64,000 nt of DNA from Rhina ancylostomus (lineage: Eukaryota): the NCBI GenBank assembly GCA_030265395.1, contig JARFYF010000104.1, forward strand, positions 69,451,121 to 69,515,120, written 5' to 3'. Shown here piece by piece: positions 22,951 to 61,810 of the stretch. Below the pieces are notes generated by a model. It ran no database searches. It was not told where the DNA came from and was given only the letters and a program-made list of their open reading frames with translations. Numbering within the stretch: the first letter of the stretch is position 1; the number at the start of each line of letters is the position of its first letter. A program made the position numbers and the translations under genes.

Positions 22951-23599
22951 TGATACCACAAGATAACCAAGGAGTCAATGTTTCCATTGGACTGGTGGTT
23001 ATGGGAACAAGGTCTTCCAGATCTGGGATTGGGGAGTCAGTGGGAGGTGGGGTGATTTACTCTTCCAAGCATGACCCCCTACAAACAGGCTGCAATTGTA
23101 CCAACTGGCTTTGTACGAGATGGGCTGGAGCTCTACTACCCACAATTTTCCATATACAGCTCCTTAGAAATAATGGAGAATGCATAAGTGCTAAGAGTGT
23201 TAACATTGCAGAGAAATTTGCAGCACTTCCTCCATAGTCCTATCAAAATTACACAGTAGCCTGAGGGAAAGGCTATAGGTTATTAGGTTCTAAATGTTAT
23301 TGGAATCCATGCAGCCCTATTCTAACTGAAATTGTAGAAATTATTGATTCCACAATATCAGGCCTCTACAGAAATTGGTTGGATCATTCAGTCCCCATTG
23401 ATCATGCATTTTGGAAAGTCACCGGCCTTCATTATTGCAGAAGTCTCCAACCTCCTCAGCCACTCCTGAGTTATCTGGCCACACTTTTTAATGACATTTA
23501 CAAAGTATCACAATTAATAGAAAGTAAATACAATTTCTCCATAATTTTATGCACATTGTCTGCCATTCAGCCACAATATTTTGAAATTAATCCTTCAAT

Positions 23600-23953
23600 C
23601 ATCATCGCTGACAACCAGTCCATCAATACCACAGCCCTCATTAAGAAAGCCCAGAAACGCCTCTTCTTCCTGCGGAGATTGTGGAAAGTGAACTCCCCTC
23701 CATCCATCACGAAAACATTTTATAGAGGAACCATTGAGAGTAGCCTGACACATTGCATTACCATCTGGTATGGGAGCTGTTCAGCCACTGGACGGAAGTC
23801 CCTGCAGAGAATAGTGAGAGCAGCAGAGAAGATTATAGGTGTTTCTCTACCCTCCATTGCGGACATATATATGGATCGATGTGTCAGAAAGGCCACAAAC
23901 ATAATGTCTGACCCTTCTCACCCCTCCCACCACCTTTTTGCACTCTTGCCATC
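23600..23953 (+). mobile_element. Rex1/Babar-like LINE ORF fragment (post-RT region), 5'-truncated, running into a gap
   Basis: Open frame NTTALIKKAQKRLFFLRRLWK...FYRGTIESSLTHCITIWYGSCSATGRKSLQRIVRAAEKIIGVSLPSI...DPSHPSHHLFALLP. Confidence 0.93.
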
Positions 23954-24214
23954 NNNNNNNNNNNNNNNNNNNNNNNNNNNNNNNNNNNNNNNNNNNNNNN
24001 NNNNNNNNNNNNNNNNNNNNNNNNNNNNNNNNNNNNNNNNNNNNNNNNNNNNNTTGTACATATCTTACAAAGAGATCTAGTTATCACTCAAATCTTAGAT
24101 AACCATACAATAAAATATAGAAAAAGCAAATTCCAACGATCTCTTAGTTAATAAAGAGAATATAAAAGAAAGGAAAAAGGTTTATTATAGTGATATACTG
24201 TCAATATGAACTCT

Positions 24215-24345
24215 TCCCTTTGAGTCCCGATGCAAAGTTTCGACCCGAAAGGTCGTCATAAACCGTTTGTATCCGCAGATGTGGCTTGGACTGTTGAGTT
24301 TTCCAGCGTTTTAATTTCCTTCCAAGCATCTGAAATCTCTTTAAT
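24215..24345 (+). repeat. Penelope-terminus-like repeat with a degenerate hammerhead motif
   Basis: gagtc-ccgatgca-aagtttcgaccc-gaaa-ggtc followed by gcagatgtggcttggactgttgagttttccagc. Confidence 0.6.
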
Positions 24346-24399
24346 CTTCATGAGATTTGAAAGTCTTCTTGTTACACTGAGCGTCTTGAATGTTATTCC

Positions 24400-26210
24400 T
24401 CCCCCCCCCCCCCGTACCAGATTTCCTGAACATCTTTGGAATTGGGAATAGAATTGCTGTGTAATGGTCTGCAGTATTTCCGCAGACGTGCGGTCCTTTT
24501 GCAGGTGCTTGAGTTGGTAACGGTCCTCCAGTGTCCGAATTTAATGACGACGGTGGCGGTTTAAGAAATGGTCTGTCAGCAGTGCAGCGTGCATTGTAAC
24601 CTGTAACATTCCACTATTTCTTGGACTTCCGAGCTGCCCAAGCTGTTGCATATCCAGTTATACAAAGCACGTGGCTGCAGCATTGAATTCAGGGCAAGGT
24701 GACCTAATCCCTCCACCAACTTCTGCATTTATTTCCTTAACACTTCCGTGGACGTTCACAGTTTCAGTCGCTCATCTGGTATCGGCCGCAGAACTATGGT
24801 GTGTAAAGGCAGCGGGCAATATACCATGAATACCGCGCCTTTGTTGCTGATATTTGGTATGTACTGAGGAACTTTATTTTCTGAATGGGTGTGTTCAGTA
24901 TTTGCAATATCACTGTGCCAGTGAACGTGAGGAGTTTAAAACCTCCATCGGGTCTATTGTAGTTCAGTCGAAACAGGCAAAACCACGTTGGGTAAGGAAT
25001 TCTTTCTAAAACTTTAAAGATGCAACTTGATAATTTCTGCTGAATTATGTGGTAACTTTTTAAGGCTGTCTGCAGCTGTAACCAGATGAGGAGGGAGGGA
25101 TAATGGTAAATTGGCACCAAGTGTCGGTACAAGTGACAATAATAAACCGACACCAAGTACGTCCGGGGTGTGGCGGCGATGTGCTGGGCCACGCAAGATT
25201 TCAGCGGAGTTACTCAATGCAACATTTTGAAAGATGTTCACTGCATTAGTAAGCAGTCTGCCCATATCCTGTCATATGTACTTGTACATATTTCAGTACA
25301 AGTTTGTGTTCGTCGCGCTTGCGGTTAAATAGTTTTGTTTTACTTCAGTGACTTTTCAAAATAGAAGGCACTCTCTGAAGGCCCGAGGTCACTTCTGCTT
25401 CGTTGTTGCGAAGTTGTCACAAATATTGAGGAAGTTCGGTTAACGTTTTCAATTCATCAGCTGCGTTTTATGGGCGATATTGCAGCAAGGTTCAAACTCC
25501 AAATGTAGAGCTGTCTCAACAAGGAATGGAGAGGGGGGGAAAGTGTATTTTTCACAGTCAGTGTATACTTTACACACACTGGTACTTGTTGACTTCTCTG
25601 GGAGCTTTATTATTGTTGTCCGAGTTCCCCTTTCTTTGAAGTCAGGCTTTTCTCGGTTAAAACCTCGGACGTCAGTTGTGTTATCCTGTTGTTGTCAGAA
25701 GCAAGCAGTTTCCATTGTAAAATCCTTTCCTTTTCTCTGAACGCTTTGCCATTTTGCACAATTCGCGTTCAGCTTTTGCCTGATGGTCATACTCGTGAGC
25801 TCCCCCGCATAAAACCTGTATGAATACACGCTCCCGTGGCAATCTGCAGGCAGGTTTGAGAGCTGAGAATTCATTTTTAAGTCACTTCCTCAATTTGTTT
25901 GCCGGAGACTAGAGGACGTCACTATGACACACATCGGCGCAGTGGGCGGAGACCGGTGTTGTTGAGAAACGCGGTGCAGCAGCTGCCAGTTGTGCAGAAC
26001 GAGCTGCTGTCAAATTCAAAGGTGTCGCAGTTGACATTCTCAGTGTTGAATGCCCCTGTCATTTCCCAAACAGAGCGCTAACACTGGACATCCAGTTGTA
26101 TATCCTAGCTGAGAAGTAAGTGCGTTCCCGTAAATTACACAGTAACTCGCCCTTCTTCCATGGGAATAACACACAATGGACCTTGTGCGCATGAGCACAC
26201 AATGGACTTT
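24400..26210. promoter_or_regulatory. CpG-enriched promoter-like region
   Basis: CpG is visibly more frequent than in the CpG-depleted flanks. ETS-like CACTTCCT 25883-25890, CRE-like GACGTCA 25915-25921, GC box GGGCGG 25944-25949, NRF1-like TGCGCATGAGCA 26186-26197. Confidence 0.6.
25955..26115 (+). other. Candidate non-coding first exon
   Basis: Lies just downstream of the GC box and ends at a consensus donor GAA|GTAAGT (GT at 26116-26117). No recognisable coding frame; the start position is a guess. Confidence 0.4.
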
Positions 26211-26217
26211 GGACCTG

Positions 26218-26346
26218 TGTTACGTACCAGCAACAACAGAAACACACCGAGTCACGTACAAGTGACTATTTTATTAATAACTACTTGCAATGATAAGAAA
26301 AGTAAAAATGTTTGACATCAAACATAATCCCCAGAACTAATCTCAA

Positions 26347-33234: not shown

Positions 33235-33386
33235 AACTAGTGCTAGAGAAACCCAGGTACTTATGCTAGGCCCCTAATGGGGCTCAGGTGTGTGTCATTA
33301 TGCAAACAGCCAAGCACGGAATCAATGTGCTGTACAACAAGGCATCAAAGGAGCCAAATTGAGGGCTAGTACTCAGAACCATGACA
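33235..33386 (-). mobile_element. Partial solo LTR, family B
   Basis: Reverse complement of 46866-47011; ends ...agaaccaTGACA and is cut by a gap. Confidence 0.85.
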
Positions 33387-37780: not shown

Positions 37781-37902
37781 TGTCACAATGTTGAGCAAAC
37801 TCAGAGAATCCAAATGCAGCATACTGATACAAGACTGGAATCAGGATACTTCCTCAGGACAAACACAGGCAGCAACTGGAAGGAATCTTGCCTCAGAGAT
37901 CA
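37781..37902 (-). mobile_element. Partial solo LTR, family B
   Basis: Starts TGTCAcaatgttgagcaa, the reverse complement of about 47170-47306; cut by a gap. Confidence 0.85.
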
Positions 37903-46865: not shown

Positions 46866-47306
46866 TGTCATGGTTCTGAGTACTAGCCCTTGATTTGGCT
46901 CCTTAGATGCCTTGTTGTACAGCACATGGATTCAATGCTGGACTGATTGTATAATGACACACACCTGAGCCCCATCAGGGGCCTAGCATAAGTACCTGGG
47001 TTTCTCTAGCANNNNNNNNNNNNNNNNNNNNNNNNNNNNNNNNNNNNNNNNNNNNNNNNNNNNNNNNNNNNNNNNNNNNNNNNNNNNNNNNNNNNNNNNN
47101 NNNNNNNNNNNGTCCTGTGTTCTCTATTCCTGTTTGAAGATTCAGTTTGTGTTGGGATTCCTACTCGGACCTCTGAGGCAAGAGTCCTTCCAGTTGCTGT
47201 CAGTGTTTGGTCTTGAGGAAGTATCCTGACTCCAGGACTCCAGTCCTGTACCAGTGTGCTGCATTTGGGTTCTCTGTGAGCTTGCTCTTTGCTCAACATT
47301 GTGACA
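46866..47306 (+). mobile_element. Solo LTR, family B, spanning a gap
   Basis: Termini TGTCA...TGACA with a 5-bp TSD catac at 46861-46865 and 47307-47311; three partial sister copies in the window. Confidence 0.88.
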
Positions 47307-58170: not shown

Positions 58171-59971
58171 TAAATTCAACTAATTTGCTATAGATTAAAA
58201 GTACTTTACGGAAATACGTCAGTGTGCAATAGGTGTAGTGCACTATCAGGCTCTCAGCATTCTATATGTAGTACATGAAAGCAGGAATTGTGAATTATAT
58301 TATGCTTGGGTCAGGATTATATATTAAAGTGTTCTTCAAAGATGTGAAATTCTACATAACAGGATGTGATTTGAAGCAATGGAATTCTATGCTTGGGTCA
58401 GATATTCAGTTAACTATTTTGTAAATTGCTGTGATGTAAGTTGCCTTCATTCTGGGATTTGGATTTTATCTATTTTGGTGAGCAAGAGCCTTGCACCTGA
58501 CATTCCCCAGTCAGACTTACATACAAAATCAGATCTGTGGAAACAGTTCATTAGGAGTTTAAAGTTAAATCTATAGTGAGCACATTTGTTTCTTACATTT
58601 CCATCTTTTATTGCTCTAGCTGTGTTTAAGAAGGAAAGGTAAGCAGCCCATTTCTAGACCATACCTTTACTGCTCTTGGCAGGTGACCAAGTGGCATTCA
58701 ATCAAAAACATCTATTTTATGGCAATTCACTAAAATATTAATGCAATTTTGTACTGAATGGTTATTTTTGGACTTCCTCTAGTACCAGTTAATGTTGGGA
58801 GTACACAGCAGGCAGTTGGCAGTTGGAAAAAAAGTAGTTGGTAATTTGGACCTGTATGAAAACTGATGGAAATCAATAACTGTTCTTTTTTACCATCCAG
58901 ATGCTGATAGATCTATTTTCTGCTTATTGTGTCCAACTTTCTTAAATATTTTCAGTATCTTTTTTTTTCTCTTTACATTATTATACTAATTGACTTCTTT
59001 ACAACAGAACTTAACAAATATTGGGCTAGAAGTGTGATTGAAGGATACAAGGGTAGTTGTAGATAATAATCACAAAATTGGCTTGGGTTCTTTTTTTATC
59101 CTGTTCTATGAGTGCTTATGTTCTCAGATTTTGACAACAAATTTGTCTGGGGAGTCTTGGCAGGATCCATGCCAGATTCCAGAAGGATCAGGGGCATGAT
59201 GATAACTTGATAGTGAGAGAAACTTGCGGCCACTACATCAAGTAGATAGCAGCAGATGTCTTATCCAACAGCCTGAGCCTCTTGCTATACTACTGTCCAG
59301 GACTGCTAAGGAAACACAGTCCTTGACAGAAAATCTTGTTATGTGGATGATGCCTCTGTAAGCTGCCCCTCTGCGCTGTTTGCCTCTCTCCTGATCCCCT
59401 TTGCAGCTAGTGTCTGAGAGTAGTAGGCTGGTCATGTTAGGCCCTCGTCTGAGATCCAATCTAATGCAACATATGCAGCAACAAAGCAAATAGACAAAGT
59501 ATCATGCATAACCCATGAAGAATGGGAAGTAACCTGTCATCATAAGAAATGAGAACAAACCCCTTCCCACTAAGAAAGTAGCGCTGAGTACTTGGTATTT
59601 ATCACCACATTTCCCTGAAACCAAATCACTTCCCTCCCCACTGCACCCCCTAGCTTTAATTACCACTCTTTTCACTTTCCCTCACAACTGAGTTTCAGAA
59701 ATCCGTGGATCTGATGTTCAATTGAAAAGTTTGTTGAAAATTTGCTCTAACTGAGCAATTAAAATAAGGTAAAAAAAACCAGAAAATACTGGAAATATTC
59801 AGCATATCAGGTCAAATCTGTGGAAAGAGAAAATAATGACAATGAGTAATTGTCAACCTCTTCTACCCAGGGGGCTTTTCCCCAGCAACTTAATTCACTC
59901 GGGTGAATGCAGAACTTGACTGCAAATTCGCTGTTGTGTCGTGCTGGAATGGTGTTTTTTCCCTCTGCCAA

Positions 59972-60117
59972 GTAAAAGGCACTTGGACAGGTACATGGAT
60001 TGGAAAGGTTTGGAGGGATATGGACCAAACACGGGCAAATGGGACTCACTCAGACGGGCACCGTGGTCGGCAGGGACTGGTTGGGCCAAACGGCCTGCTT
60101 CCGTGCTGTAGAACTCT
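59972..60117 (+). mobile_element. CR1-like LINE 3' tail, CpG-retaining copy
   Basis: aggcacttggacaggtacatggat...gggccaaacggcctgcttccgtgctgtagaactct. Confidence 0.85.
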
Positions 60118-60598
60118 GGCCCTGCCGATACCATCAGCCGGGAACAGTCGGGGGCAAGAGGTAGAAGGTTAATCCCCAAACCCCCGCCCACAGCCCGCTG
60201 AGCCCCACTCCCCCGTCAGTGGAAGTGGTTCCTGCAGTGAAGTCCGTAAGTGGAATCACTGGGTCACCCAAGGACTTCGAGCCGGGGCCAGGGCAACAAG
60301 AGCAAGCAGAACGTGGTGTGATTTGACAGGGACGTTTCAAGCTGTCAGAAGGCACAATTGATACCAGACCCCAATAACCCCAGTCAGGAGGAACTTTCCC
60401 TTGGGAGAGTACGACGTTCCCGCGGGGAGTGGTGGAGAGGGGATAGGTTTCAGGATAGGTGGGTGATGGAGGGGGGACGGGGGGGAGGGGGGGGTGTTGA
60501 GGAGCAGCACCATCGGGCGAGCTCCTGCAGACACCATGCCCGGGTTCTGGGGGCGACACAGGGTCCCTCTGCCCCCGGACCCTCGCACTCTCTGGTAC

Positions 60599-60718
60599 CT
60601 GGCAGAACTCCTTCATCTTCTCCAGCACTGCAGCCACCTCTGGCATCACATTCTTGCCATCCACTTGGATCGGAACATCAGGGCTGTTCCTCAGAGCGAC
60701 GTGAAGCACGGCCCGGTT
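60599..60718 (-). CDS. GPI: Single internal exon of glucose-6-phosphate isomerase or a GPI-like copy (equivalent to vertebrate exon 4)
   Basis: Encodes [40 protein letters not shown], containing the PGI '[10 protein letters not shown]' signature. It is 120 bp, phase 0/0, with a polypyrimidine-AG acceptor (60720-60719) and a CAG|GTAC donor (GT at 60598-60597). Confidence 0.93.
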
Positions 60719-60764
60719 CTGGGGAGGGAGCAGTGGAAGACACGATACACCAGAGGGGGCAAGC

Positions 60765-60940
60765 ATGAACGTGGAACACTACAGCACAGGCCCTTCGGCC
60801 CACAATGTTGTGCCGACATTTTATCTGCTCCAAGATCTATCTAACCCTTCCCTCCCACATCGTCCTCCATTTCTCTATCATTCATGTGTCTAAGAGTCTC
60901 TTAAATGTCCCTAATGTATCTGCCCCCACAACCTCTGCCG
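60765..60940 (-). mobile_element. CR1-like LINE 3' tail
   Basis: acagcacaggcccttcggcccacaatgttgtgccgacatt...; reverse complement of the tail at about 57850-58017. Confidence 0.85.
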
Positions 60941-61040
60941 NNNNNNNNNNNNNNNNNNNNNNNNNNNNNNNNNNNNNNNNNNNNNNNNNNNNNNNNNNNN
61001 NNNNNNNNNNNNNNNNNNNNNNNNNNNNNNNNNNNNNNNN

Positions 61041-61105
61041 CTGAGGAAGTATCCTGACTCCAGTCTTGTATCGGTGTGCCACATTTGGGTTCTCTGTGAG
61101 TTTGC
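61041..61105 (+). mobile_element. Partial solo LTR, family B (3' end)
   Basis: Matches 47214-47306 and ends TGACA; starts at a gap. Confidence 0.85.
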
Positions 61106-61810
61106 TCTGGATCAACACTGTGACACATGGGCCAAAGGGCCTGTACTGTACTGTTATATCCCTATGTTCTATTTAAGCAGAAGGGTATTTAAGGCATGAT
61201 TTTGTAGCCTTTCCAAATTTAACTCTTTAAGCTGATATCATGACTCCATCCCTACCAAGGACAATACTTTCCTGAGATTTGGTGTCCAAAAGTGAATAAA
61301 GTACATTAATTCATGTCTATGCAGGAGTCTCTATAAATAATTACCTCACTGGGTTTCATTCCAATGACCTTTTAGATTAACTTGTATCTGTACCTTAGCT
61401 TTTAGAGATGTCTTTACATTGATACCCAAATCCCTCTGGTTACCCCACGGGTCTTAGACTTTCACCTTTAAGAAAATATCCTGATATGCTTTTCACCGCT
61501 CACAGTAACCAGAGTCAGTATGACTGCCAATTCTGTTACTATCGATCCTATCAATACCATATGCTCAAAAAGTTTATTTCATAACTTAAGCTGCGTAAAA
61601 TAATTCAACTTTCTATTTTTGTCCCTTCTGCTGTTTGATACTTATTTTAATTGTGTCACAGCAAGTTTATTAGTTCCAATTAATTAATATAATGATGAAG
61701 GATTGCTTAAATTGTTGATTTAGATTTTTGACTATATGTAACTGAACTATCATTAATCAATTTTGCATGACTTTAAGGCATGAACACTGAGAGATTCCTG
61801 TTAAACTTAC

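What the first reader, a model, noticed from the sequence alone, without database searches (positions are those of the whole stretch)
59900..60940. Isolated intact GPI exon in a GC-rich block embedded in AT-rich DNA
Seen: one 120-bp in-frame GPI exon with both splice sites and flanking intron-like sequence, inside about 1 kb of GC- and CpG-rich DNA with CR1 tails at both ends. It is contiguous with AT-rich DNA on the left and ends at a gap on the right. By eye I could not find the next exon (..GKTITDVINIGIGGSDL-like) in the 60 kb downstream or the previous exon in the 3 kb upstream. From my recollection of human GPI, RSNT after ALRN is replaced by SPDV. Retained intron flanks argue against a processed pseudogene. 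Inference: a DNA-level or transduced fragment from a GC-rich GPI locus, a diverged paralogue with very long introns or exons hidden in gaps, or a mis-assembly.
Basis: partly seen in the sequence, partly recalled or inferred. Interest (0 to 1): 0.7.

Follow-up and report, generated by a model that had tools for sequence, protein, structure and literature searches.

The report
Misplaced GPI exon, assembly error
This lone exon is the piece missing from the ray's ordinary sugar-metabolism gene GPI, most of which lies on another scaffold next to a gap, so it was most likely stitched into the wrong place by the genome assembler through a repeat and is not a new biological feature.

Summary
The exon is real: 120 bp (60718-60599, minus), AG/GT, phase 0-0, Pfam PGI. 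It is the only copy in the assembly. GPI exons 5-18 (13 of 14 seen) lie collinear on scaffold C17, directly behind a 6,890-N gap where this exon belongs; exon 3 is likewise stranded on scaffold C67; exons 1, 2, 13 were not found. SPDV also stands in sawfish GPI, so it marks no paralogue. The block's composition matches the C17 introns, not its surroundings. The switch lies inside a very high-copy LINE tail starting at 59974; the C17 gap edge ends in the matching LINE body, about 55 bp short of that tail. Contig depth in the best run is single-copy level, 4.7 against 5.9 (weak). Verdict: repeat-mediated mis-join, about 0.93. No long reads were available, so a true copy is not fully excluded. 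An earlier scan note (e1-9902338) saw a similar stranded exon in this genome and leaned the other way; unchecked.

The parts
60599..60718 (-). GPI exon 4 (number inferred by counting back from an 18-exon gene), 40 codons, phase 0-0; equals residues 96-135 of sawfish GPI
   Evidence: 36 of 40 identical to P0003, 34 of 40 to P0004
60119..60598 (-). 5' part of GPI intron 4, unique, GC-rich
   Evidence: single match in the assembly; run X1 contig 60131-60616 links it to 18 bp of the exon
60719..60769 (-). 3' end of GPI intron 3 with pyrimidine tract and AG acceptor
   Evidence: sequence
59974..60118 (+). LINE (CR1-type, name recalled) 3' tail; likely site of the mis-join between a native C104 copy and the intron-4 copy of GPI
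   Evidence: summed contig depth above 100,000; contigs of three other organisms enter it from the flank and end at 60000-60004; collinear with the LINE body at the C17 gap edge
60770..60940 (-). second LINE tail of another subtype, in intron 3, cut by the gap
60941..61040 (.). 100-N gap of unknown true size
61041..61175 (+). far side of the gap: end of an about 390-bp TG..CA-bounded repeat, then a short LINE tail on +; does not continue the repeat at the block's right end
58536..59973 (.). native AT-rich C104 flank
   Evidence: contigs X1 58536-59737, X2 58500-59422 and 59429-60000

Best explanation
The block is exon 4 with parts of introns 3 and 4 of the animal's GPI gene, and it was likely joined to the wrong scaffold by the assembler, which likely crossed from a native LINE tail on C104 into a similar tail in GPI intron 4. 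Shown: single copy; rest of the gene on C17 behind a gap at this exon's slot; exon 3 stranded on C67; compatible splice phases; switch inside a very high-copy repeat. Inferred: the cross-over step itself, and that the block fills part of the 6,890-N gap on C17. In the animal the exon would be spliced normally between exons 3 and 5 of the glycolytic enzyme.
For: Peptide and 646-bp core each match once in G000. 13 of the 14 exons 5-18 are collinear on C17:2360047-2377330 (-), 86-100% identical to sawfish GPI; exon 5 lies 440 bp from a 6,890-N gap. Exon 3 (23 of 23 identical) sits alone in a GC-rich 2.1-kb contig on C67 between a 100-N and a 6-N gap; exons 1, 2, 13 not found. Exon 3 donor, exon 4 and exon 5 acceptor are all phase 0. 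Core GC 60.8% is reached by 7 of 182 windows of the C17 GPI region and 0 of 1463 on C104. The C17 gap edge ends in a LINE body on the same strand relative to the gene as the tail at 59974; in 14 of 21 collinear pairs of intact local copies the two parts are 43-55 bp apart. Only 7 of 192 contig ends surveyed look like that edge, and 8 of the 14 ends inside this LINE break at that short core. Three other organisms have the flank running into the LINE start, so the LINE is an old native insertion. X1 depth 4.7 on the core, 5.86 on the flank, 5.87 weighted mean on 7 C17 GPI contigs.
Against: No read or contig was seen that joins the block to C17, and none that shows the native C104 sequence past 60004; all runs are contigs that break in the repeat. 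Depth is low, the tool warns that it is no copy number, read length is unknown, and X1 may be the assembly's own data. The exon differs from sawfish more than six other exons do (4 of 40 against 6 of 231, Fisher p 0.044), though two rays differ there by 8 of 40, the most of the seven exons compared. The 7-of-192 match of repeat halves is only moderate support. The gene-order check was partial: the DUF4745 hit 130 kb 5' of GPI on C17 is on the opposite strand.
Confidence: 0.93

Rival explanations
1. A real, recent DNA-level copy of the exon-4 segment was pasted into C104 by recombination or template switching between LINE tails; the two near-identical copies were collapsed by the assembler, leaving the gap on C17.
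For: The block is gap-free with the flank; collapse of a young duplicate would also give one assembled copy and a gap at home; a junction inside a repeat is also what ectopic recombination leaves.
Against: X1 depth on the core is 0.8 of the C17 GPI mean, not 1.5 or 2 (Poisson p for 2x 3e-9 to 9e-4 for assumed read lengths 100-250; for 1.5x 1e-4 to 0.03). Exon 3 is displaced independently and three more exons are missing, so the locus is simply badly assembled; about half of the C17 GPI region is N.
Confidence: 0.05
2. LINE-mediated 3' transduction: read-through from the antisense LINE in intron 4 carried the unspliced antisense exon to C104.
For: Order on + (5'-truncated LINE tail, then GPI DNA in antisense with both splice sites kept) is the shape such an event gives (sequence).
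Against: The LINE start at 59974 is shared by three other organisms, two of which differ by 7-10 substitutions in 110-220 bp beside it, so it is old, yet no second, diverged exon-4 copy exists. The visible right end is an antisense tail, with no poly(A) or sense tail. LINEs with SINE-shared tails, CR1 among them, are presumed to need their own 3' end for priming (PMC3747384, passages).
Confidence: 0.015
3. Exon of a diverged GPI paralogue with very long introns on C104.
For: C104 has gaps that could hide exons.
Against: Whole-genome searches find every GPI exon once and no other on C104; the exon fills exactly the stretch that C17 lacks; SPDV is in sawfish GPI; only teleosts have two GPI genes in PMC4684624 (passages and part 1 of the synteny section).
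Confidence: 0.005

Closest known systems
Glucose-6-phosphate isomerase of rays (Pristis pectinata P0003, Hemitrygon akajei P0004; Pfam PF00342)
   Same: 36 of 40 and 34 of 40 identical residues, SPDV shared with Pristis, exon borders fit the neighbouring exons found on C17 and C67.
   Different: In this assembly the exon stands on another scaffold than the rest of the gene.
'Fragmented', 'missing exon' and 'translocation' classes of false gene loss in short-read vertebrate assemblies (Kim et al. 2022, PMC9516821; passages seen)
   Same: GC-rich, repeat-rich gene with exons missing or split over scaffolds; 26-60% of genes had some such error in the older assemblies that paper examined.
   Different: Here the join is inside a gap-free contig, through a LINE tail; no long-read reference of this species was on hand to prove it as that paper did.
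L1 3' transduction (recalled; relaxed versus stringent priming from PMC3747384, passages)
   Same: LINE tail followed by unspliced genic DNA.
   Different: No donor copy beside the new copy, no poly(A), no doubled depth, non-L1 element.

Membership tests
Exon of the orthologous vertebrate GPI gene | Matches PF00342 above cut-off and is closest to elasmobranch GPI | tested here: met
   48 bits against 22; best named hits sawfish 90%, stingray 85%
Exon of the orthologous vertebrate GPI gene | Fills a stretch that the main locus lacks, with compatible splice phases | tested here: met
   C17 starts at residue 136 behind a gap, exon 3 ends at residue 95, all phase 0
Exon of the orthologous vertebrate GPI gene | Physically collinear with exons 3 and 5 | tested here: inconclusive
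   Not so in the assembly (three scaffolds); no contig bridges the repeats either way
Exon of the orthologous vertebrate GPI gene | Spliced to exons 3 and 5 in RNA | not testable with these tools
   needs RNA reads of this species
Repeat-mediated mis-join (assembly artefact) | Switch point inside a high-copy repeat | tested here: met
   depth above 100,000 at 59976-60057; flank contigs of X2-X4 end at 60000-60004; core contig of X1 starts at 60131
Repeat-mediated mis-join (assembly artefact) | Single copy, with a gap at the home locus | tested here: met
   contig depth at single-copy level, weak
Repeat-mediated mis-join (assembly artefact) | No long reads span the junction | not testable with these tools
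   all listed runs are kept as contigs
GPI paralogue | A second set of GPI exons in the genome | tested here: not met
LINE 3' transduction or segmental copy | Donor copy and new copy both present | tested here: not met
   one copy in the assembly; depth not doubled; a collapsed young copy is only weakly excluded
LINE 3' transduction or segmental copy | Target-site duplication and 3' tail at the far end | not testable with these tools
   far end lies in the gap 60941-61040
Processed pseudogene | Introns removed, neighbouring exons joined | tested here: not met
   intron flanks and both splice sites kept

The most novel reading that the evidence does not exclude
Probability: 0.05. Interest if true: 0.45.

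Novelty: not a real feature. Interest (0 to 1): 0.06.

Why it matters
As biology it does not matter: GPI here looks like an ordinary single gene. Practically it is a warning for this assembly: GC-rich, LINE-dense genes are broken and their exons can be fused, without a gap, to unrelated scaffolds, so other 'isolated exon' or 'gene loss' calls in this genome need a whole-genome exon search first. If the rare reading held, it would show LINE-tail recombination moving exons in a cartilaginous fish.

Tried and rejected
None of the four runs laid shows cover over 60632-60713, and X2 has almost none on the core although it covers several C17 introns; holes are also common on C17 and a filter drops records, so this was not used either way. 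Search for exons 1-2 with sawfish residues 1-72 gave one weak hit with a stop (E 0.73), rejected. PDCD2_C search for gene order hit an unplaced contig and C63, not C17: uninformative. Pfam scan of 122 of 216 long frames of the window found no host gene (PGI, one LINE-end hit to ALKBH8_N over its cut-off, three weak hits below cut-off); 132 of 140 long frames around C17 GPI named no neighbour. The idea that the short tail at 61126-61175 is the native end of the LINE that starts at 59974 was tested and left open: it resembles the other tail subtype. CpG counts in the two tails (6 and 5, against 0-2 in four other C104 copies; 0-8 on C17) point the same way but n is too small. In the depth mean one 68-bp contig in a tandem repeat (depth 7.94) was dropped. 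Two look-ups of earlier notes found nothing. Three literature searches listed no paper on this locus; no supplements were read.

Full report
Observation. The minus strand at 60718-60599 holds a 120-bp open exon between a pyrimidine-rich AG acceptor and a GT donor, phase 0 at both ends. It matches Pfam PGI at 48 bits, cut-off 22, and residues 95-134 of solved mammalian GPI structures, which carry RSNT where this exon has SPDV. The core 60125-60764 is 60.8% GC; none of 1463 overlapping windows in the surrounding 94 kb reaches that. The block is gap-free with the AT-rich DNA on its left and ends at a 100-N gap. Two ray GPI proteins find no other exon in the window or the next 30 kb.

Whose exon. 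The best named relatives are sawfish GPI (36 of 40) and stingray GPI (34 of 40), so the genome is likely a ray's. Sawfish GPI has the same SPDV and the stingray RPDI: the change is a ray feature of the orthologue. The exon differs from sawfish somewhat more than six other exons (4 of 40 against 6 of 231, p 0.044), but the two rays differ from each other most in this exon (8 of 40).

The rest of the gene. The window is C104:69451121-69515120 of a 2.2-Gb assembly in 65,984 pieces. The exon's peptide and its 646-bp core each match once. GPI residues 136-555 lie collinear on C17:2360047-2377330 (-) in 13 of 14 expected exons; counting back from 18 exons (PMC4684624, passages) makes the window exon number 4. 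Exon 5 lies 440 bp from a 6,890-N gap, and about half of the region is N. Exon 3, identical to sawfish over 23 residues, sits alone in a GC-rich 2.1-kb contig on a third scaffold, C67, between a 100-N gap and a 6-N gap inside a repeat. Exons 1, 2 and 13 were not found. Splice phases of exon 3, exon 4 and exon 5 fit. No exon was found twice, so there is one gene in three places. The block's composition is that of the C17 introns (7 of 182 windows as GC-rich; Markov log-odds 75 for C17 over C104). A DUF4745 hit (KIAA0355 by recall; the 5' neighbour of GPI in PMC4684624 Table 1) lies 130 kb 5' of GPI on C17, on the opposite strand: partial support that C17 is the home locus.

Where the switch is. 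At 59974 a LINE-type tail begins (CR1 by recall); summed contig depth there exceeds 100,000. Contigs of three other organisms run from the AT-rich flank into it and stop at 60000-60004, so the flank-to-LINE border is real and old; X1's contig on the GC core starts at 60131; nothing bridges the repeat. The C17 contig that carries exon 5 ends, towards the gap, in a LINE body of the same family and the same orientation relative to the gene; in 14 of 21 collinear pairs from intact local copies, body and tail are 43-55 bp apart. Seven of 192 contig ends surveyed look like that edge, and 8 of the 14 ends that fall inside this LINE break at that short core. The simplest reading is one intron-4 LINE split in two, the tail half having been reached by the assembler from a native C104 copy. 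On the right, the block ends in a second tail on the minus strand, while the far side of the gap starts in an unrelated repeat, so the two sides do not fit.

Copy number. Run X1, which has no differences from the window over 1,202 and 486 bp and may be the assembly's own data, gives depth 4.7 on the core, 5.86 on the flank and 4.6-8.0 (weighted 5.87) on seven C17 GPI contigs. A collapsed duplicate would give about 11.7; Poisson p is 3e-9 to 9e-4 for assumed read lengths. The tool warns that contig depth is no copy number, so this is supporting, not decisive.

Mechanism and rivals. Best: repeat-mediated mis-join, 0.93; shown are the single copy, the slot and gap on C17, the second stranded exon and the repeat at the switch; inferred is the cross-over. 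A young real copy collapsed with its donor remains at about 0.05. Transduction (0.015) is disfavoured by the age of the LINE start, the missing second copy and the presumed need of such LINEs for their own 3' end (PMC3747384, passages). A paralogue (0.005) is excluded by the exon census; only teleosts have two GPI genes in PMC4684624.

Comparison and novelty. It works like, and is, an exon of ordinary vertebrate GPI. Its isolation fits the fragmented, missing-exon and translocation errors described for GC- and repeat-rich genes in short-read assemblies (PMC9516821, passages). A bamboo-shark record P0005 begins with this same exon on a 2,335-bp contig, so the exon is orphaned in another shark assembly too. 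Not novel; interest 0.06.

Noticed in passing
G000:C67:1681293-1683409: GPI exon 3 stranded in a GC-rich contig on a third scaffold, bounded by a 100-N gap and a 6-N gap inside a SINE-like repeat.
   Followed up: yes
window 24200-26300: CpG-rich stretch at moderate GC (contig CpG observed/expected 0.65 against 0.0-0.3 elsewhere); looks like a promoter island; no Pfam hit in the frames scanned.
   Followed up: partly
window 23265-23953: 229-codon open frame with an ALKBH8_N hit; by recall the end of a LINE ORF2, cut by a gap.
   Followed up: no
window 46866-47306, 33235-33386, 37781-37901, 61041-61125 and 78644-79035 of the extension: An about 390-bp repeat bounded by TGTCA..TGACA, solo-LTR-like, usually broken by an assembly gap.
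   Followed up: partly
window 59835-59973: Unique stretch next to the junction that is covered by contigs of three other organisms while most of the flank is not covered in two of them; possibly a conserved non-coding element.
   Followed up: no
P0005 and P0006: A bamboo-shark record is this exon alone plus read-through on a 2.3-kb contig; a basking-shark GPI model jumps from this exon to exon 13. GPI seems hard to assemble in other cartilaginous fishes too.
   Followed up: no
G000:C17:2507307-2507630: DUF4745 hit 130 kb 5' of GPI but on the opposite strand; a local inversion or a scaffolding error.
   Followed up: no
G000:C17:2314589-2315441: Strong CpG island (73% GC, CpG ratio 0.92) 45 kb 3' of GPI; gene not identified.
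   Followed up: partly
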